6,001 nucleotides of DNA from an uncultured Bacilli bacterium (GCA_947628365.1 CANQZN010000066.1:1-6001), one strand, 5' to 3'. Numbered from the stretch's first letter, positions 1 to 4,934 are shown. Program-made: numbers and translations. The notes: generated from the sequence alone by a model not told the origin.

Positions 1-104
1 TTTGCACTATAAGCCTCACGGCTTATTTTTCCTGTTTCATAGGATTTTACTCCTCCACAGGCCATATTTCCGACAGTCGCTGCCGTACTTATTTTTTTTA
101 TTAT
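1..104 (-). pseudogene. TnpB C-terminal-like fragment / omega-RNA-like region (partial, continues left of window)
   Basis: The frame is open from 104 to the window edge after a TAA at 107-105. The only ATG (65-63) has no good SD. The peptide ..TAATVGNMACGGVKSYETGKISREAYSA.. resembles TnpB tails, and there is a stable hairpin at 9-26. Confidence 0.35.
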
Positions 105-114
105 TTATTTAATT

Positions 115-201
115 TTAATAATTTTCTTTATAGTAACTTATTATTTCTACTTGTTTTACATTTGGATACATTCTAAATTTGTATGCGTGATTAACTAACA
201 T
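115..201 (-). pseudogene. TnpB N-terminal fragment (28 codons then TAA)
   Basis: ATG 201-199 with a strong SD. Translation is MLVNHAYKFRMYPNVKQVEIISYYKENY, with stop TAA at 117-115. This is far too short for a functional TnpB (normally about 350-450 aa). Confidence 0.5.
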
Positions 202-226
202 AACCATTACCTCCCTAGACAATATA

Positions 227-256
227 ATTATACCATACGAACAAATGTATTTACAA
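227..256 (-). promoter_or_regulatory. Sigma-70/SigA-type promoter driving the TnpB remnant
   Basis: Minus strand reads TTGTAA (256-251), an 18-nt spacer, then TGgTATAAT. The TATAAT is at 232-227 and the TGG at 235-233, giving a perfect -10 with an extended TG. Confidence 0.45.
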
Positions 257-338
257 GTGCTTTTTTACCTTTTTGAACTTTCCTATAAGATAAAAAAATG
301 CCAATCTATTATATACAATTTAGAAACAAAAAAATACT

Positions 339-384
339 TTATCCCTTTTTGTTAATAACTTGGTAGTTTTTAACAAATGGCATT
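339..384 (-). pseudogene. Orphan 3'-end fragment of a hypoxanthine-DNA glycosylase gene (direct-repeat partner of 3566-3620)
   Basis: 339-376 matches 3566-3603 at 35 of 38 nt. After a 9-nt in-frame gap, 377-384 matches 3613-3620 at 7 of 8 nt. The fragment translates as ..IIMPFVKNYQVINKKG*, versus ..CAIPFAKIVENYQVINKKK* at the intact gene end. The stop codon is at the equivalent position. Confidence 0.75.
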
Positions 385-412
385 ATAATGTATTATTCTA
401 CATTAAAAAAAA

Positions 413-1645
413 TTATTTTCGTTCTAAAATTAATTGTTTGGTTTTTTCAGGAGCTGGAATATCTTTTGTATTAATAAATATATAGTTAATCTTTTTCTGA
501 AAAAAATTGGGATCATAATGCTCAGGTGTTAAATCATTAAATATTATCCATAATACACACGGACAATTATCTGGATATATGCATTCACCATCTGTAAGAA
601 TAATTTTATTATCAGCATTATTAGAAAAGCACTCCACCATTTTTACAAAATCAGTACAACCTCTACCTACAATTTGTAAATTATCAATATCTTTTTCGGT
701 TTTTATTTCATTCCACCCATAAAATTCTATATCAAAAAATCCGACTTTCATATGACTGGCAGTCAAAATATTTTTGCACTCTCTTAAAATTGCTTTTATT
801 TTTGGCATTTGCATAGAAAAACTACTATCAATAATTATTTCACTTTCACTGTCTGACTCAGTAGGTTTTTCTTCTTTTTTTATTATTCCATCCATTTCAA
901 CTTCATAAAATGAGGTTGTTGACTCATCTGGTGAATAAATACTCTTATTTAATAAATTTTTCCAATCAAGAATTGCCTTTGATTTGCCAACATTTACACT
1001 AGGAAATTCTATACCTAAAGAAGTTTTAATTGCATTAGCATCATATTTAAGTTGTTCTTGATAATTATCCAATATTTTACTTCTTATTTTACTATTTTCA
1101 TTCATTAATTCTTCTAAATCCGTAGAATTTATTTTACTATTTTCATCCATTAGTTCTTCTAAATCTTTAGAATATATTTTATTTATCCATGTTTCTATTT
1201 CACTTATTCCCATATGATAAGTATTGCTATTCATCCATTCTTTAATTTGTTGTAAATACGGCAAATATTTCATATATAATTCCTCTACAGAATAATCTAA
1301 CGCATCTGGAATATATATTACGCCAGAAGGCATAGTTAAGCCATCTCTAACTAATAATTGATTAATAATTGCATCTTCTACAAAGTTTAATAAATCTTTA
1401 TCTTTTCCAATATTTCTTGAAAGATGATTTAACACTATATGAAATATCTCATGTGCTATTATAAACTCTTGTTCTGCATCAGTAAAATAATCTATAAAAT
1501 CTTGCTTATAGAAAATACATTCTCCGTTTGTATATGCGGGAGCAGGTACTAAATCACTACAAAGGCAAAATTGTAAATTAACAATTATATTACCAAATAA
1601 AGGATATCTTATCAAAAGTTTTTTTATAATATTATTTATTTCCAT
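413..1645 (-). CDS. HExxH metallopeptidase (DUF2201_N-like) fused to a vWA/MIDAS domain (DUF2201-like); partner of the upstream AAA+ ATPase
   Basis: 410-aa ORF. The ATG at 1645 overlaps the upstream gene's stop by 14 nt (ATGGAAATAAATAA), with AAAGG about 10 nt upstream. Zincin motif HEIFHIVLNH (H65 E66 H69 H74) is at nt 1424-1453. A Glu/Lys/Asn-rich linker carries a 15-aa tandem duplication. The C-terminal domain has MIDAS DSSFS (D273xSxS, nt 815-829), GRGCTDF and ILTDG, as I recall for the DUF2201 VWA-like domain. Confidence 0.8.
   Translation of the reverse strand: MEINNIIKKLLIRYPLFGNIIVNLQFCLCSDLVPAPAYTNGECIFYKQDFIDYFTDAEQEFIIAHEIFHIVLNHLSRNIGKDKDLLNFVEDAIINQLLVRDGLTMPSGVIYIPDALDYSVEELYMKYLPYLQQIKEWMNSNTYHMGISEIETWINKIYSKDLEELMDENSKINSTDLEELMNENSKIRSKILDNYQEQLKYDANAIKTSLGIEFPSVNVGKSKAILDWKNLLNKSIYSPDESTTSFYEVEMDGIIKKEEKPTESDSESEIIIDSSFSMQMPKIKAILRECKNILTASHMKVGFFDIEFYGWNEIKTEKDIDNLQIVGRGCTDFVKMVECFSNNADNKIILTDGECIYPDNCPCVLWIIFNDLTPEHYDPNFFQKKINYIFINTKDIPAPEKTKQLILERK
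1084..1175 (-). repeat. In-frame 45-bp tandem duplication (2 copies plus the start of a third) inside the peptidase-vWA linker
   Basis: 1086-1130 versus 1131-1175 is 40 of 45 nt identical. The units encode KDLEELMDENSKINS / TDLEELMNENSKIRS. Confidence 0.9.
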
Positions 1646-3473
1646 TTGGCACTAACCTTTTAACTAACGGACTATCATCGTTATTATATATTTTCATTAT
1701 TCTTTGTTCATTACCTTTAGACCATTCATAATCAAAAACTGCCAAAAATTCTTTTCCTAATCCACTAACAAACTCTCTAACCACATCAACATTATCATCA
1801 TCCACTGTACTCAAACATAAAGTCGTGTACCATCTAATAGATGGATTAAAAGGAATATTATCAGATGTACATTTACCACTTAAAACATCTTCAACAGTAA
1901 CTAAATTCATTTGTGAAAATTTTATAAAGTCTTTTGTTATTTCCTCCCCAACAAAAGCACGAAGAACATTTGGATTATTGCATTGATATAATGCTCGAGA
2001 AGCTAATGCCCATTTTCTAGGATCGGCATTTGGAGTTTCACCATTATAAGGAGTTCTTAAAACTTTATCTCCATTAACTCTAATATAATCTACAATAGCT
2101 GGATAAATTGTATCCCTTTCCTCAATTTTTTTATAAGTTAAAGTTCTTCCTTCTTTTTTTCTATTTGAAGCCCATTTTATCCATTCTTCAGAGTCGGTAT
2201 CAATATAAACATGAGCAAATCTTCCAAATAATGGTGCACTCATAGCATTTGCAGATCTTGACTCACTCGCTTCATTTCCTGCCGCACAAACTACAGCATT
2301 TTCAGGCAAATGTAATCTAAAACCACTATTAGTTAAAGTTTTATTAAGTGTTACTTCAAATGCTACTTTTTGAATATCATTTTTTGCATTTGTTAATTCT
2401 TCTAAAAATAGAATATGTAATAACTCTGGATGCTCTTCACATTTTTTGCACAAACTTTTATACCAATATGGCTCGTATAGGAAAAGTTCTTTAGAATTAA
2501 AATCTTTTGCAACAATACCTGTAAACCCATCTGAACTAGTACATCCAAAATCAACTAATTCTAAATTTTTATCTAATGCTATCATTCTTTCGGTTTTTCC
2601 AGCACCTGTCTTGCCATGCAGAAATACTGCTATATTACTATTAATACAAATCTCAACAATTTCTTCTTCAGTTAAATCAGAAAAATCAAATCCATATCTA
2701 TTATAATTTACTATTTCTTCTTGAAACTCAACTGAAGGTACCTTATGCTCCAACTCATCATTAATACTTTTTAAAAAATTCCCATTTAAATATCTATTTA
2801 AATCACTATTTTCAAATTCTCTTCCTTGACTATCAAAGTCTGATACCATCAAAACCATAGAAGAGTAAATTAATTGAGCATCTTCATCGACTTGAAAAGG
2901 AATTTTATCAATTTTCATATAAACAATTTTATCTTTTTCAGTTAATGTACCATCTATTAAAACACATTGTGAAGTTTTTTGACTCTTTTTAATAAATCTA
3001 ATACCAAACACTTCATATTCATCATATAAAGTATTATTTATATCATGAACTCTTCCTGTTTTTAAAATCAATTTACTTTTAGTTTTAAATAGTTCGTCAA
3101 TTGTTTTTCCAAACATACCACCAATTGCAAATAAAGGGTATTCACATACTAAATTATCTATTTCATTTAATTTAAAATCTTCAATATCATTAAAATGTAT
3201 CGCTATTCTTACGCCAACTGGGCTTTTACCAGAATATGATGAAGATAAATTACCATTTTTATCAACATACTTCATAGCATTCTTCTTTTTATCACTTGAT
3301 GGTTTCCCATTGTACCAGTAAGCGCCAAAACCATTTGATGGATTATATTCAATTCCCATAACCCTAGCTAAATCAGAGCAATAGCACTCAAGTCCAATTT
3401 GTTTAAGAGTAGGAATCATATCAAGATTTTTTATATGATTTTCTTTTAATATACCGACTTTTTTTATCTTCAT
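1632..3473 (-). CDS. AAA_5-type (MoxR/McrB-clade) P-loop ATPase with a ~285-aa non-ATPase N-terminal module (DUF6273-like?) and a helical C-terminal region
   Basis: The ORF track opens at a TTG (3491), but the ATG at 3473 has GGGGGA (3485-3480) 6 nt upstream, so I call 613 aa. Walker A GKTGAGKT is at nt 2592-2615. A Walker B-like ILFLEE is at nt 2397-2414. VVCAAGNEASESRS is a sensor-1 region resembling both MoxR ..TQNP.. and McrB ..MNTADRS. LFGRF sits where MoxR has LDRF. The N-terminal part has no NTPase motifs and contains GFGAYWY and ENSDLNRYLNGNFLKSI. Confidence 0.8.
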   Translation of the reverse strand: MKIKKVGILKENHIKNLDMIPTLKQIGLECYCSDLARVMGIEYNPSNGFGAYWYNGKPSSDKKKNAMKYVDKNGNLSSSYSGKSPVGVRIAIHFNDIEDFKLNEIDNLVCEYPLFAIGGMFGKTIDELFKTKSKLILKTGRVHDINNTLYDEYEVFGIRFIKKSQKTSQCVLIDGTLTEKDKIVYMKIDKIPFQVDEDAQLIYSSMVLMVSDFDSQGREFENSDLNRYLNGNFLKSINDELEHKVPSVEFQEEIVNYNRYGFDFSDLTEEEIVEICINSNIAVFLHGKTGAGKTERMIALDKNLELVDFGCTSSDGFTGIVAKDFNSKELFLYEPYWYKSLCKKCEEHPELLHILFLEELTNAKNDIQKVAFEVTLNKTLTNSGFRLHLPENAVVCAAGNEASESRSANAMSAPLFGRFAHVYIDTDSEEWIKWASNRKKEGRTLTYKKIEERDTIYPAIVDYIRVNGDKVLRTPYNGETPNADPRKWALASRALYQCNNPNVLRAFVGEEITKDFIKFSQMNLVTVEDVLSGKCTSDNIPFNPSIRWYTTLCLSTVDDDNVDVVREFVSGLGKEFLAVFDYEWSKGNEQRIMKIYNNDDSPLVKRLVPNGNK

Positions 3474-3497
3474 TATAAGTCCCCCTAACAAAATATT

Positions 3498-3526
3498 AAT
3501 ATACCATAAATAGTCTTTTTTTACAA
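3498..3526 (-). promoter_or_regulatory. Sigma-70/SigA-type promoter of the ATPase/vWA cassette
   Basis: Minus strand reads TTGTAA (3526-3521), a 17-nt spacer, then TGgTATATT. The TATATT is at 3503-3498 and the TGG at 3506-3504. It lies about 25 nt upstream of the ATG at 3473. Confidence 0.5.
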
Positions 3527-3565
3527 TTACAAACTATATTCTAAAAACTCTCAACTTTAGATATT

Positions 3566-4054
3566 TTATTTCTTTTTGTTAATAACTTGGTAGTTTTCAA
3601 CAATTTTAGCAAATGGTATTGCACAATTAGCGGGTGATGGTGAGTATAAACAAGTTGCCTCTATATGTGTTTTTGGTAAAATATACTTATTATATAATTC
3701 ATGAGCTTTCTTACCAGTTGTAAATATATATTTTATATTAGTTTCTTTTATTAATTTATTTATATTATTAGGTATCACTTTAGTTATAGATGAATCGCTA
3801 GATCCTTTAATATTACACGATTTAATAACATCCCATAAAGCAATATGATTATTTTTTAAAAATTCTTTTTTAGAAGAAATATCATCACCAATTGTAGTAT
3901 TAAAAACACTTTCTAATATTTTCCAAAATCTATTTTGTTTATGCATATAATAGAAACCTAATTCTCGTGATTTTACCGAAGGAAAAGAACCAAGTATTAA
4001 GATTTCACTATCTTGTTCATAAAATGGTGGAAAAGAATGATTAACTCTTGCCAT
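3566..4054 (-). CDS. UDG-superfamily family-6 glycosylase (hypoxanthine-DNA / DNA-deoxyinosine glycosylase)
   Basis: 162-aa ORF. The N-terminal HSFPPFYEQDSEILILGSFPSVKSRELGFYYMHKQNRFWKIL matches the pattern I recall for bacterial deoxyinosine glycosylases (..iLiLGsFPS..S....YY.h..NrFW..l). The start is 2 nt after the HAD gene stop, indicating translational coupling. Confidence 0.75.
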   Translation of the reverse strand: MARVNHSFPPFYEQDSEILILGSFPSVKSRELGFYYMHKQNRFWKILESVFNTTIGDDISSKKEFLKNNHIALWDVIKSCNIKGSSDSSITKVIPNNINKLIKETNIKYIFTTGKKAHELYNKYILPKTHIEATCLYSPSPANCAIPFAKIVENYQVINKKK

Positions 4055-4590: not shown

Positions 4591-4622
4591 ATTTTCACTA
4601 TCTCCTAATTAAGTTAGCCTTT

Positions 4623-4631
4623 ATTATAACA
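4623..4631 (-). promoter_or_regulatory. Possible proximal extended -10 promoter for the HAD/glycosylase operon
   Basis: Minus strand reads TGtTATAAT (TATAAT 4628-4623, TGT 4631-4629). It lies just downstream of the 4651-4688 terminator and about 30 nt before the HAD ATG. There is no good -35. Such hexamers arise by chance in A+T-rich DNA. Confidence 0.3.
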
Positions 4632-4650
4632 CAAATTAAAAATAAGAAAT

Positions 4651-4688
4651 AAAAAAATTAAGCCCATAGTATATAATACTACGAGCTT
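4651..4688 (-). terminator. Intrinsic terminator between rpsI and the HAD gene
   Basis: Minus strand reads AAGCUCGUAGUAU-UAU-AUACUAUGGGCUU. This is a 13-bp stem (11 Watson-Crick plus 2 G-U pairs) with a 3-nt loop, followed by AAUUUUUUU. Confidence 0.7.
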
Positions 4689-4805
4689 AGAATAATTCAG
4701 CAGTCTCCCAGTCTCTACATGTATTCTTTCGGTATAACCTACTCTAACCTTATATAATAAGGCGTCAGTGCAAGAAGAAATATTTACACCCTTAAATTAT
4801 TTCAT
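4689..4805 (-). ncRNA. Candidate structured RNA (riboswitch-like leader of the HAD/glycosylase operon, or an independent sRNA); class not recognised
   Basis: It is bounded by a candidate promoter (4812-4840) and the terminator (4651-4688). It contains the hairpin CCUUAU-UAU-AUAAGG. It also has a long-range helix, GGUUAGAGUAG (4749-4739) with UUAUUCUAAGC (4695-4685), in which 10 of 11 positions pair. The 3' strand of that helix shares AAGC with the terminator 5' arm. Confidence 0.4.
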
Positions 4806-4811
4806 GTAATA

Positions 4812-4840
4812 TTCATACCATTAATTTTATAAAAAATCAA
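4812..4840 (-). promoter_or_regulatory. Candidate promoter downstream of the rpsI terminator
   Basis: Minus strand reads TTGATT (4840-4835), a 17-nt spacer, then TGgTATGAA (TATGAA 4817-4812). The -10 is imperfect. Confidence 0.35.
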
Positions 4841-4885
4841 TCGTTTTTTTATTTGCATCTATTTAAATTAACAAATATTTTTAAC

Positions 4886-4916
4886 AAAAAACCTCATAAA
4901 CAATATGTTTACGAGG
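4886..4916 (-). terminator. Intrinsic terminator of the rplM-rpsI operon
   Basis: Minus strand reads CCUCGUAAACA-UAU-UGUUUAUGAGG, an 11-bp stem including one G-U pair, followed by UUUUUU. It lies 19 nt after the rpsI stop. Confidence 0.8.
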
Positions 4917-4934
4917 CATAAAGAAACTTGATTT

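What the first reader, a model, noticed from the sequence alone, without database searches (positions are those of the whole stretch)
339..3620. Cassette is bracketed by a diverged direct duplication of the 3' end of the glycosylase gene
Seen in sequence: the last ~55 bp of the intact glycosylase gene (3566-3620) recur at 339-384, just beyond the end of the vWA gene. Identity is 35 of 38 nt, then a 9-nt gap, then 7 of 8 nt. The orphan copy keeps the reading frame (the gap is exactly 3 codons) and has a stop codon at the equivalent position (..PFVKNYQVINKKG* versus ..PFAKIVENYQVINKKK*). The 3181 bp between the copies (385-3565) contain only the cassette promoter and the two cassette genes. Inference: the cassette was inserted at, or exchanged through, the 3' end of the glycosylase gene. 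The mechanism could be site-specific integration that regenerates the gene end, or homologous recombination with a diverged allele carrying the cargo. The divergence and the codon-sized indel argue against a simple target-site duplication and for two different alleles of the gene end. The repeat gives exact candidate boundaries for the mobile unit.
Basis: partly seen in the sequence, partly recalled or inferred. Interest (0 to 1): 0.7.

Follow-up and report, generated by a model that had tools for sequence, protein, structure and literature searches.

The report
Gene-end relic marks cassette insertion hotspot
A two-gene accessory cassette sits just after a DNA-repair glycosylase gene in an uncultured gut bacterium and is followed by a leftover copy of that gene's last ~50 bases; relatives show this spot repeatedly takes in new cargo and pushes old gene ends downstream, which is a known style of genome hotspot, not a new mobile element.

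Summary
The repeat is real. Window 334-384 matches 3561-3620: 39/43 identical, then a 9-nt gap, then 7/8. The local score is 66 against a null maximum of 40 in 1000 simulations. Both junctions recur in at least 11 independent assemblies. The copies bracket a promoter plus an AAA_5-like ATPase gene and a DUF2201 peptidase/VWA gene.

Comparison shows an insertion hotspot between the deoxyinosine-glycosylase gene and an Amidase_3 gene.
- Three relatives have the two genes adjacent (empty site).
- A conspecific haplotype (flanks 98-99% identical) carries a RelB-YafQ cassette instead. It has a 35-nt relic of the DUF2201 gene followed by its own glycosylase-end relic.
- The window's genome has a second relic about 610 nt further on.
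- A sister species has a Fic cassette bracketed the same way.

The ATPase/DUF2201 pair occurs in six other contexts, two with recombinases, and never with such repeats. In one diverged background the whole glycosylase gene travels with the cassette at 100% identity.

Best reading (about 0.5): sequential displacement. DNA anchored by homology in or upstream of the glycosylase gene brings a fresh gene end plus cargo, and strands the resident gene end.

Rival (about 0.25): att-type integration by an unseen recombinase.

This is a new member of a known kind, of moderate interest.

The parts
3566..4054 (-). Intact DNA-deoxyinosine (hypoxanthine) glycosylase gene, UDG superfamily, 162 aa. It is the conserved anchor gene whose 3' end is duplicated.
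   Evidence: Pfam PF03167 E 4e-14. NCBIfam TIGR04274 equivalog, 130 bits against a cut-off of 80. The C-terminal ..VENYQVINK motif is conserved across 120 homologues.
3561..3620 (-). Gene-proximal copy of the repeat: the last 55 nt of the glycosylase gene plus 5 nt after the stop.
   Evidence: The last 88 nt of the gene are identical to the conspecific haplotype L171. Divergence from L171 begins 2 nt after the stop.
3529..3560 (-). 32-nt spacer between the repeat and the cassette. It contains a degenerate remnant of the 3' arm and T-run of the glycosylase terminator (AAGTTGAGAGTTTTT).
   Evidence: It is not shared with cassette copies elsewhere. It resembles the 3' arm seen intact in L007/L008. 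It folds weakly here (z = -0.3).
3474..3528 (-). The cassette's own promoter and 5' UTR: -35 TTGTAA, TG-extended -10 TATATT, and a GGGGGA ribosome-binding site.
   Evidence: Promoter scan. Homology with cassette copies L056, L057 and L058 starts at window 3528-3521.
1632..3473 (-). Cassette gene 1: 613-aa ATPase. The AAA_5/MoxR-like domain is in the C-terminal half. The N-terminal ~270 aa are unassigned.
   Evidence: Pfam AAA_5, weak (E 0.0017). PHROG 1297 'ATPase' E 4e-39. Homologues of 612-618 aa set the ATG at 3473. No PDB, PADLOC or NCBIfam hit.
413..1645 (-). Cassette gene 2: 410-aa DUF2201_N metallopeptidase-like plus DUF2201 VWA-like protein. It overlaps gene 1 by 14 nt.
   Evidence: Pfam PF13203 E 1e-16 and PF09967 E 2e-7. 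PHROG 1314 E 2e-38. It is always adjacent to the ATPase in L056-L059 and L167-L170.
385..412 (-). 28-nt 3' flank of the cassette, partly alignable with the flank of the L056 copy.
334..384 (-). Orphan 1: a displaced relic of a glycosylase 3' end (-55..+5, with a 9-nt deletion).
   Evidence: It best matches the gene end of haplotype L171, sharing TAAAGTAT after the stop. A relic occupies the same position after a DUF2201-gene remnant in L171.
208..333 (-). Intergenic stretch belonging to the older, displaced unit. It has half of a palindrome (261-299) and a TG-extended promoter (256-227).
   Evidence: Window 299-261 is 83% identical to the palindrome at L056 3359-3399. Promoter scan.
115..207 (-). 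Truncated N-terminus of a TnpB (IS605/IS1341-type OrfB) gene. It is an IS remnant inside the older unit.
   Evidence: Pfam PF12323 HTH_OrfB_IS605, E 5e-5, 23 bits against a cut-off of 21. A 30-aa gene is called here in L038/L039.
1..100 (-). Possible C-terminal tail or right-end remnant of the same IS (unverified). Beyond the window edge, in L039, lie a truncated RelB gene, orphan 2 and the Amidase_3 gene.
   Evidence: The IS reading rests on reading the sequence only.

Best explanation
The interval between the deoxyinosine-glycosylase gene and the Amidase_3 gene is a recombination hotspot in this clade of uncultured low-GC gut Bacilli. New cargo arrives there by sequential displacement.

Proposed steps:
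1. Incoming DNA from a related strain carries, in order, conserved upstream sequence, a complete glycosylase gene end, and a new cassette.
2. Its left side is integrated by ordinary homologous recombination in or upstream of the glycosylase gene.
3. Its right side is joined inside the last ~30-60 nt of the resident glycosylase gene. The join is either illegitimate, at a microhomology, or uses the short conserved ..GAAAACTAYCAAGTTATTAAC.. core of a relic already carried by the donor.
4. The resident gene end, now useless, is stranded downstream of the new cassette, still attached to whatever cargo used to follow it.
5. Repetition stacks units.

In the window's genome the resulting order is:
- glycosylase;
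- ATPase + DUF2201 cassette;
- relic 1;
- IS remnant + truncated RelB;
- relic 2;
- amidase.

Shown: the architecture, the empty sites, the alternative cargos, the co-transfer of the glycosylase gene with the proximal cassette junction, and one microhomology junction. Inferred: the actual recombination pathway and the order of events.

The cargo is a self-promoted ATPase/DUF2201 pair that elsewhere rides on integrative elements and has relatives in phage protein families. Its function is unknown.
For: 1. Empty sites. The glycosylase gene is directly followed by Amidase_3 in L012, L013 and L053/L055. The window's flanks align to L046 and L007 up to the glycosylase stop, and again from the amidase start.

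2. Same species, different cargo. L171/L172 flanks are 97.6-99% identical to the window. There the glycosylase gene is followed by:
- RelB-YafQ;
- a 35-nt remnant of the DUF2201 gene's 3' end;
- a 63-nt glycosylase-end relic;
- a 135-aa gene;
- amidase.

3. Nested relics. A second relic lies about 610 nt beyond relic 1 in L039, next to the amidase gene. Its tail AACATTCATAAATAA resembles the native gene end of L052/L053.

4. Independent case. In L007 a Fic cassette is bracketed by the gene end and a 71-nt relic (score 109). That relic is closer to sister species L008's gene end than to L007's own. This is as expected if the attached end is the incomer.

5. The anchor gene travels with the proximal cassette junction. 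In L006 identity to the window jumps from about 85% to 100% at the HAD/glycosylase boundary. It stays at 100% through the spacer and the first 198 nt of the ATPase gene, where the contig ends.

6. Mosaic SNPs inside the glycosylase gene and in rplM show frequent recombination with diverged donors.

7. Illegitimate joining is visible. The truncated RelB gene is fused to relic 2 across an imperfect 11-nt microhomology, AAAT(T)GTTG(G/A)A.

8. No recombinase gene lies in any of the sequenced glycosylase-amidase intervals (window plus L039, L171, L007, L046).

9. Relics are not obligatory. L046 carries a Fic cassette 90% identical to L007's with no relic.

10. The ATPase/DUF2201 cassette in six other contexts has no glycosylase-like or other flanking repeats. 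The repeat is therefore a property of this locus, not of the cassette.

11. Precedent. The same model was proposed for T6SS effector-immunity arrays and for Rhs/CDI orphan strings (PMC5361080).
Against: - Classical homology-facilitated illegitimate recombination usually deletes recipient DNA. It does not usually leave a duplicated stretch of the anchor.
- There are only two or three independent informative joins (-62/-55, -42, about -38/-27). All fall in the last ~60 nt of a 489-nt gene. That hints at site preference. Loss of longer, recombination-prone repeats could bias what survives.
- The core contains an imperfect 11-6-11 inverted repeat, TTGTTGAAAAC-TACCAA-GTTATTAACAA. It matches 9/11 (chance about 0.05) in the gene copy and 10/11 (chance about 0.005) in relic 1. 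This is the layout of a tyrosine-recombinase core site.
- The microhomology at the DUF2201/relic-1 join could not be established.
- Similarity between the sequence after relic 1 and the sequence after the L171 gene end is not significant.
- Competence or another DNA-uptake route in these uncultured organisms is unknown.
- L006 ends 198 nt into the ATPase gene, so co-transfer of the full cassette is not shown directly.
- No complete genome was available to rule out a recombinase encoded elsewhere.
Confidence: 0.5

Rival explanations
1. Att-type integration. The 3' end of the glycosylase gene is an attachment site. Cassettes enter as circles carrying a copy of that site and integrate by a single reciprocal crossover. 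The crossover is catalysed by a recombinase encoded elsewhere (Xer-like or another tyrosine or serine recombinase), or occurs by RecA on the 26-nt identical core. This regenerates the gene end and leaves the other hybrid site downstream. Arrays would grow by accretion, as with cis-mobilizable elements, pseudo-SCC elements or IMEX.
For: - Direct repeats bracket exactly one promoter-plus-operon unit.
- Relics are nested.
- A different cargo is bracketed the same way in L007.
- All four copies in this species lose similarity at the same point, 5 nt after the stop (..TAAARTAT|).
- The pattern of differences between the gene copy and relic 1 fits one reciprocal exchange. The +2 G and downstream sequence are of resident type in the relic. 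The +2 A plus terminator remnant are of incoming type at the gene.
- The core has an imperfect 11-6-11 palindrome, improved to 10/11 in relic 1.
- Homologous cassettes elsewhere are cargo of elements with a tyrosine integrase next to a tRNA gene (L056) or a large serine recombinase plus Mob_Pre relaxase (L058).
Against: - No recombinase lies in any sequenced array.
- The same Fic cassette sits in L046 without any relic.
- The ATPase/DUF2201 cassette elsewhere never carries a glycosylase-like site.
- The core motif is absent from 2.9 million viral contigs.
- In L006 the whole glycosylase gene is 100% identical along with the proximal cassette junction. Integration into a resident gene end does not predict this.
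- The native intergenic spacer is only 8-45 nt, so a shared '+5' boundary is weak evidence.
- The palindrome lies in a protein-constrained motif and was noticed post hoc.
Confidence: 0.25
2. Decayed larger integrative element. A full IME or prophage with its own integrase integrated into the glycosylase 3' end. Everything except the ATPase/DUF2201 module was later deleted, leaving attL and attR.
For: - The module is carried by integrase- or relaxase-bearing islands in L056 and L058.
- Both proteins hit phage families PHROG 1297 and 1314.
Against: - What lies between the repeats is exactly the conserved promoter-to-stop block shared with six other contexts, plus 32 and 28 nt. There is no pseudogene or other element debris.
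- Those islands target other sites: a tRNA gene in L056, and neither has a glycosylase gene nearby.
- Three different arrays all lack an integrase.
Confidence: 0.1
3. In-situ duplication. Insertion at widely staggered breaks, or replication template switching at the terminator hairpin that overlaps the gene end, duplicated about 60-70 nt of target around captured DNA. This would be a very long target-site duplication.
For: - In L007/L008 the gene end forms the 5' arm of a strong terminator hairpin (z = -5.6 and -4.5).
- L011 has an exact 25-nt tandem duplication of the gene end with no cargo. This shows that local duplication happens here.
Against: - The two copies are not the same allele. Relic 1 matches the L171 end better than the attached end, and the L007 relic matches L008's end better than L007's own.
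- Relic 2 and the L171 relic have different C-terminal codons, NIHK* and SKNK*, against NKKK*.
- No known transposase makes duplications of this length (general knowledge).
Confidence: 0.07
4. Chance similarity or assembly chimera.
For: The sequence is AT-rich (27% G+C). The contigs come from metagenomes.
Against: - Score 66 against a null maximum of 40 in 1000 simulations.
- Identical junctions in at least 11 runs, and two contigs spanning the whole structure.
Confidence: 0.01

Closest known systems
Orphan arrays made by sequential displacement: T6SS effector-immunity arrays in Vibrio cholerae, and Rhs/CDI orphan toxin-immunity strings (PMC5361080 and references cited in it)
   Same: - A conserved gene serves as a homology anchor.
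- Incoming DNA brings a new distal part plus cargo.
- The old distal fragment and its cargo are pushed downstream.
- Repetition gives arrays of truncated relics.
- No integrase is involved.
- Homology-facilitated illegitimate recombination was proposed as the mechanism.
   Different: - There the conserved gene is itself the toxin-delivery gene, and the displaced piece is a functional toxin tip with its immunity gene. Here the anchor is a housekeeping DNA-repair gene.
- The relic here is only 30-63 nt with no function.
- The cargos are unrelated modules: ATPase/DUF2201, RelB-YafQ, Fic, an IS.
Cis-mobilizable elements (CIMEs) and accretion at the fda 3' end in Streptococcus thermophilus; pseudo-SCC elements and composite SCC islands at the rlmH (orfX) 3' end in staphylococci (own knowledge; CIME/accretion concept in PMC5704250 and PMC7563491)
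   Same: - Cargo units lack a recombinase.
- They are bracketed by direct repeats of the 3' end of a conserved gene.
- The gene stays intact.
- Tandem arrays are separated by repeat copies.
   Different: - Those repeats are defined att sites of known integrases or Ccr recombinases, with proven excision. Here no recombinase is seen, and excision is untested.
- Relics are not obligatory here (L046).
- The anchor gene co-transfers with the proximal cassette junction (L006).
Homology-facilitated illegitimate recombination in transformable bacteria (Prudhomme 2002; de Vries & Wackernagel 2002; Meier & Wackernagel 2003, as cited in PMC5361080; PMC3240628)
   Same: - One homologous anchor plus one illegitimate join at a short microhomology.
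- One such join is visible here (truncated RelB gene/relic 2).
   Different: - Experimental events usually delete recipient DNA next to the anchor. Here the join lies inside the anchor-homologous gene end, so a short duplication results.
- Competence of these organisms is unknown.
Xer-dependent integrating elements (IMEX) and pdif modules of Acinetobacter plasmids (own knowledge)
   Same: - Small cargo modules, often toxin-antitoxin or accessory genes, without their own recombinase.
- They are bounded by 28-bp 11-6-11 sites. The glycosylase core has that geometry.
   Different: - The site here lies in a coding sequence next to rplM-rpsI, not at dif or on a plasmid.
- There is no convincing sequence similarity to known dif sites.
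- pdif modules are bounded by inverted sites, while these are direct.
- The geometry is only marginally above chance.
MoxR-type AAA+ ATPase with VWA partner; DUF2201 family (Pfam PF13203/PF09967); PHROG 1297/1314 phage gene pair
   Same: - Adjacent, overlapping ATPase and VWA-containing genes.
- Carried on mobile elements and in phages.
   Different: - The AAA_5 match is below the Pfam cut-off.
- The ATPase has a ~270-aa N-terminal region of unknown type.
- No characterised member, solved structure or defence-system model matches.

Membership tests
Sequential-displacement (anchor-recombination) orphan array | The conserved anchor gene is co-transferred with the new cargo | tested here: met
   In L006 the HAD gene is about 85% identical to the window. 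The whole glycosylase gene, the spacer and the first 198 nt of the ATPase gene are 100% identical, up to the contig end. The breakpoint is at the gene boundary.
Sequential-displacement (anchor-recombination) orphan array | The displaced relic represents a resident or other allele of the anchor's distal end, still linked to older cargo | tested here: met
   Relic 1 best matches the L171 gene end. The L007 relic best matches the L008 end. Relic 2 best matches the L052 end. Relic 1 is followed by an IS remnant plus a RelB homologue, and relic 2 by amidase.
Sequential-displacement (anchor-recombination) orphan array | Nested or multiple relics, and alternative cargos at one locus within a species | tested here: met
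   There are two relics in the window's genome. The conspecific L171 has RelB-YafQ plus a relic.
Sequential-displacement (anchor-recombination) orphan array | Illegitimate right-hand junction at a microhomology | tested here: inconclusive
   It is clear for truncated RelB/relic 2, with an imperfect 11-nt microhomology. It is not resolvable for DUF2201/relic 1 or for Fic/L007 relic.
Integrative element with att duplication (ICE/IME/CIME, SCC-like) | Direct repeats of the target gene's 3' end flank the inserted unit, and the target gene is left intact | tested here: met
Integrative element with att duplication (ICE/IME/CIME, SCC-like) | A cognate integrase or recombinase in the element or adjacent to the array | tested here: not met
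   There is none in window plus L039, L171, L007 or L046. A recombinase acting in trans cannot be excluded without a complete genome.
Integrative element with att duplication (ICE/IME/CIME, SCC-like) | Every integrated unit is bounded by att copies | tested here: not met
   L046 has four genes, including the Fic cassette, between glycosylase and amidase with no relic. Its best score of 32 is at background level.
Integrative element with att duplication (ICE/IME/CIME, SCC-like) | Excision to a circular form, or the same unit with the same ends at the same site in unrelated hosts | not testable with these tools
   This needs raw reads or a wider genome survey.
Integron | An intI integrase next to attI, with promoterless cassettes each ending in an attC hairpin | tested here: not met
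   No integrase is present. The cassettes carry their own promoters. The repeat is a gene end. It forms a hairpin only in L007/L008, where it is the gene's terminator.
IS200/IS605-TnpB transposition as cause of the repeat | The cassette lies between IS ends next to tnpA/tnpB | tested here: not met
   Only a 30-codon TnpB N-terminal fragment exists, 127 nt downstream of relic 1 and outside the bracket. This family makes no target duplication (general knowledge).
Xer-dependent element (IMEX / dif module) | A 28-bp 11-6-11 XerC/XerD-type site at each boundary | tested here: inconclusive
   There is an imperfect palindrome, 9/11 in the gene copy (P about 0.05) and 10/11 in relic 1 (P about 0.005). 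No similarity to known dif sites was established. The motif is protein-coding.
DNA-deoxyinosine glycosylase (TIGR04274, UDG superfamily) | A full-length match above the curated cut-off | tested here: met
   130 bits against a cut-off of 80, residues 7-151. Pfam UDG.
Known anti-phage defence system (PADLOC models) | A match of either cassette protein to a defence-system model | tested here: not met
   There were no hits at E <= 0.01.

The most novel reading that the evidence does not exclude
The last ~28 nt of the glycosylase coding sequence (TTGTTGAAAAC-TACCAA-GTTATTAACAA) would be a genuine recombination site. A host recombinase encoded elsewhere, Xer-like or another tyrosine recombinase, would use it. 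The glycosylase-amidase interval would then be an integron-like or IMEX-like cassette array in small-genome gut Bacilli. Recombinase-less modules (ATPase/DUF2201, Fic, RelB-YafQ) would be captured, stacked and possibly excised, each carrying one copy of the site.
Probability: 0.12. Interest if true: 0.7.

Novelty: new member of a known kind. Interest (0 to 1): 0.4.

Why it matters
- It documents, with empty sites and two haplotypes in one species, how uncultured small-genome gut Bacilli swap accessory modules at a fixed chromosomal spot. It also shows that short 'gene-end fossils' record the order of acquisitions. These relics can be used as markers to find such hotspots and to read their history in metagenome assemblies.
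- It flags a self-promoted ATPase/DUF2201 pair as a promiscuous mobile module worth testing for a conflict-related role. The pair occurs in seven genomic contexts, on integrative elements, and in phage protein families, and its function is unknown.
- If the minority reading were right, it would add a recombinase-in-trans cassette system in a lineage where none is known.

Tried and rejected
- A metagenome-contig scan for the 18-nt core (AACTAYCAAGTTATYAAC) gave 107 loci, mostly environmental. None encodes a glycosylase relative, so the scan was uninformative.
- A viral-contig scan for the 21-nt core gave 0 hits.
- I looked for flanking repeats around the cassette in its other contexts (L056, L057, L058, L167-L170). 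Nothing rose above shuffle level.
- I tested whether the sequence after relic 1 is homologous to the sequence after the L171 gene end. It is not significant: 126 of 500 shuffles scored as high. That argument rests only on gene order and the RelB homology.
- I considered a longer decayed duplication reaching the two promoters (window 210-237 vs 3481-3508, 75%). I rejected it as promoter/RBS convergence, because the ATPase promoter is native to the cassette in L056, L058 and L167.
- I considered a TGTGCAA microhomology at the DUF2201/relic-1 join, based on the L056 flank. It is not conserved in other cassette copies, so I left it as a hint.
- There were no Rfam or tRNA hits in the window.
- There were no PDB sequence relatives or PADLOC hits for the cargo.
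- A look-up of the exact HAD protein gave no new haplotype.
- Structure prediction of the cargo was not attempted, because it does not bear on the repeat.

Full report
**Layout of the window.** All genes lie on the minus strand. In gene order they are:
- rplM (5794-5363);
- rpsI (5354-4935);
- a HAD_SAK_2 phosphatase-like gene (4590-4057);
- a DNA-deoxyinosine glycosylase of the UDG superfamily (4054-3566; TIGR04274, 130 bits against a cut-off of 80);
- a 613-aa ATPase (3473-1632; the ATG is set by 612-618-aa homologues);
- an overlapping 410-aa DUF2201_N/DUF2201 metallopeptidase-VWA protein (1645-413).

After these come the orphan copy of the glycosylase end (384-334), an intergenic stretch with a promoter, and a 30-codon N-terminal fragment of a TnpB gene (207-115; PF12323). 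G+C content is 27%.

- The repeat finder reports 334-376 vs 3561-3603 at 39/43.
- The longest exact block is 26 nt.
- The gene end against the rest of the window scores 66. In 1000 Markov simulations the mean was 26.7, sd 2.9 and maximum 40.
- The same search in about 20 related loci without a relic gives 22-37.
- Both junctions are reproduced in contigs from at least 11 sequencing runs. Two contigs span the entire structure. It is not an assembly artefact.

**Where the cassette begins and ends.** The ATPase/DUF2201 pair has about 190 homologues, down to about 50% identity for full-length copies. I recovered it in six other genomic contexts:
- L056: next to an HTH gene and a tyrosine integrase that abuts a tRNA gene;
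- L057: between murB/POTRA and a metallophosphatase gene;
- L058/L059: inside an element with a Mob_Pre relaxase and a large serine recombinase;
- L167/L168;
- L169/L170.

Homology to all of them starts at window 3528-3521, at the cassette's own TG-extended promoter. It ends at the DUF2201 stop, around 412. That leaves a 32-nt spacer (3529-3560) and a 28-nt flank (385-412) between the cassette and the repeats. None of the other copies has flanking repeats above shuffle level or any glycosylase-like sequence. The repeat therefore belongs to this locus, not to the cassette.

**The locus in relatives.** A scan of species-representative genomes found 29 loci with a glycosylase relative, the best at 75-76% identity. 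All are uncultured Bacilli or Mycoplasmatota-like MAGs, many from rabbit gut. None has the ATPase/DUF2201 pair next to the gene.
- In L012, L013 and L053/L055 the glycosylase gene is followed within 8-45 nt by an Amidase_3 gene.
- Contig L039 extends the window leftwards. It shows that the window's genome reaches the same amidase gene about 0.65 kb beyond relic 1.
- Glycosylase-amidase is thus the ancestral adjacency, and everything between is insertion.
- What is inserted differs by lineage. L046 has four genes including Fic. L007/L008 have a Fic cassette.

**More relics.**
- L039 holds a second glycosylase-end copy about 610 nt past the first, right before the amidase gene. Its tail (AACATTCATAAATAA) resembles the native gene end of L052/L053 (AACATTCATGAATAA).
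- In L007 the Fic cassette is bracketed by the gene end and a 71-nt relic, score 109.
- That relic includes an intact terminator hairpin (z = -4.5). It is closer to sister species L008's gene end than to L007's own.

**A second haplotype of the same species.** The only other member of the glycosylase's 90% cluster (P0241, 96% identical, same C-terminus) led to contigs L171-L175 from five further samples. Their rplM-rpsI-HAD-glycosylase DNA is 97.6-98.8% identical to the window, and the amidase start is 99% identical. Between them L171 carries:
- RelB and YafQ/ParE genes;
- the last ~35 nt of a DUF2201 gene (..AAACAATTAATTTTAGAACGAAAATAA);
- 12 nt of spacer;
- a 63-nt glycosylase-end relic without the 9-nt gap;
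- a convergent 135-aa gene.

Several conclusions follow.
- The join 'DUF2201 end - glycosylase relic' predates the split of the two haplotypes' arrays. It is only 76% identical between them, while the flanks are 98-99% identical.
- In L171 most of an ATPase/DUF2201 cassette has been overwritten by a toxin-antitoxin cassette.
- The 77-aa ORF beyond the window edge is a truncated RelB homologue, 82% identical at the nucleotide level to L171's (E 6e-33).
- That ORF is fused to relic 2 across an imperfect 11-nt microhomology.
- Window and L171 share identical glycosylase sequence for the last 88 nt. They diverge from 2 nt after the stop. Twelve SNPs cluster in the middle of the gene.
- Relic 1 shares the post-stop TAAAGTAT of L171, not the window's TAAAATAT.

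**How the cargo moves.**
- Contig L006 is about 85% identical to the window through the HAD gene. It then becomes 100% identical from the start of the glycosylase gene. This continues through the spacer and the first 198 nt of the ATPase gene, where the contig ends.
- L039, from the same sample, matches the window's right side with one mismatch.
- So at least once the whole glycosylase gene moved into a diverged background together with the proximal cassette junction, by homologous recombination.
- L172 also has a ~200-nt tract of about 20% divergence in rplM.
- Recombination with diverged donors is therefore common here.

**Interpretation.** These facts fit sequential displacement best. Incoming DNA is anchored by homology in or upstream of the glycosylase gene. 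It brings a complete gene end plus new cargo. Its right end is joined within the last tens of bases of the resident gene. The join is illegitimate, or uses the conserved GAAAACTAYCAAGTTATTAAC core that protein constraint (..VENYQVIN..) keeps nearly identical across species. The resident end is stranded, still attached to the older cargo. The same model was proposed for T6SS effector-immunity arrays and Rhs/CDI orphan strings (PMC5361080).

**The main rival.** This is att-type (Campbell) integration of circular cassettes by a recombinase acting in trans. In its favour:
- the clean bracket around one unit;
- the common +5 boundary of all four copies in this species;
- differences between gene copy and relic 1 that fit one reciprocal exchange;
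- an 11-6-11 imperfect palindrome in the core, 9/11 (P about 0.05) in the gene copy and 10/11 (P about 0.005) in relic 1.

Against it:
- no recombinase lies in any array;
- the Fic cassette in L046 has no relic;
- the cassette never carries the site elsewhere;
- the viral-contig scan gave no hit;
- the gene is co-transferred in L006.

I put displacement at about 0.5, att-type integration at about 0.25, a decayed larger element at about 0.1, in-situ long duplication at about 0.07, and artefact at about 0.01.

**The cargo.** Both proteins match phage families: PHROG 1297 'ATPase' (E 4e-39) and PHROG 1314 (E 2e-38; labelled HNH endonuclease, though Pfam identifies the window protein as DUF2201). 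There are no PADLOC, NCBIfam or PDB matches. The only paper found holding both 'DUF2201' and 'AAA' is a phage genome report. The pair is a self-promoted module of unknown function that rides on mobile elements.

**Verdict.** The repeats are better read as a fossil of displacement than as the ends of a mobile unit. The phenomenon is a new example of a known kind of hotspot architecture. It is of moderate interest, with a minority possibility of a true recombination site.

Noticed in passing
window 115-207 (-) and 1-100; L039 1633-1850: This is a remnant of an IS605/IS1341-type element. A 30-codon TnpB N-terminus (PF12323) has its own TG-extended promoter (256-227). It is followed by an A-rich gap and a possible C-terminal tail or right-end remnant. 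A hairpin lies at 9-26 (+).
   Followed up: partly
window 1084-1173: There is a 45-nt tandem duplication (91% identical) inside the DUF2201 gene. It gives a repeated 15-aa segment (..NSKI.S.DLEELM.E..) in the linker between the peptidase-like and VWA-like domains.
   Followed up: no
window 4591-4934: The rpsI-HAD intergenic region has two terminator-like hairpins (4917-4891 and 4689-4659, minus strand) and no ORF of 40 aa or more. L171 has about 70 nt extra here. Relatives carry PBECR3 (L046), a RelB-like gene (L007; with a second 96-aa ORF in L008) or other genes in this interval. It is a second variable spot just upstream.
   Followed up: partly
L011 2642-2691: There is an exact 25-nt tandem duplication of the glycosylase gene end (AGTTATTAACAAAAGTCAAAAATAA x2) with no cargo between the copies. 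It lies in the loop of the terminator hairpin. The gene end is evidently prone to local duplication.
   Followed up: no
L007 10490-10560, L008 5570-5640, L046 10960-11035; L007 11915-11955: The Fic cassette promoter carries three copies of AATTGCATCA/TGATGCAA(TT), which look like operators. A decayed pair (AATTACATCA..TGATGCAATT) follows the L007 relic. This suggests a deleted older Fic-type unit.
   Followed up: partly
L172 positions matching window rplM (window about 5730-5530): A ~200-nt tract of about 20% divergence lies inside an otherwise ~99% identical rplM gene between two conspecific contigs. It looks like a recombination import from a diverged lineage into a ribosomal protein gene.
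   Followed up: no
window 261-299; L056 3359-3399: One arm of a palindrome (TTTATCTTATAGGAAA..) in the window is 83% identical to a perfect palindrome downstream of the cassette copy in L056. It may be a small repeated palindromic element of these genomes.
   Followed up: no
L046 14720-15655, L012 12152-13090, L048 7873-9515: The neighbourhood downstream of the amidase gene carries an Abi_2 gene in L046 (Pfam); the similarly placed 312-aa ORF in L012 was not Pfam-tested. A different glycosylase context (L048) has Ku plus an ATP-dependent ligase. So end-joining repair genes exist in this clade.
   Followed up: no
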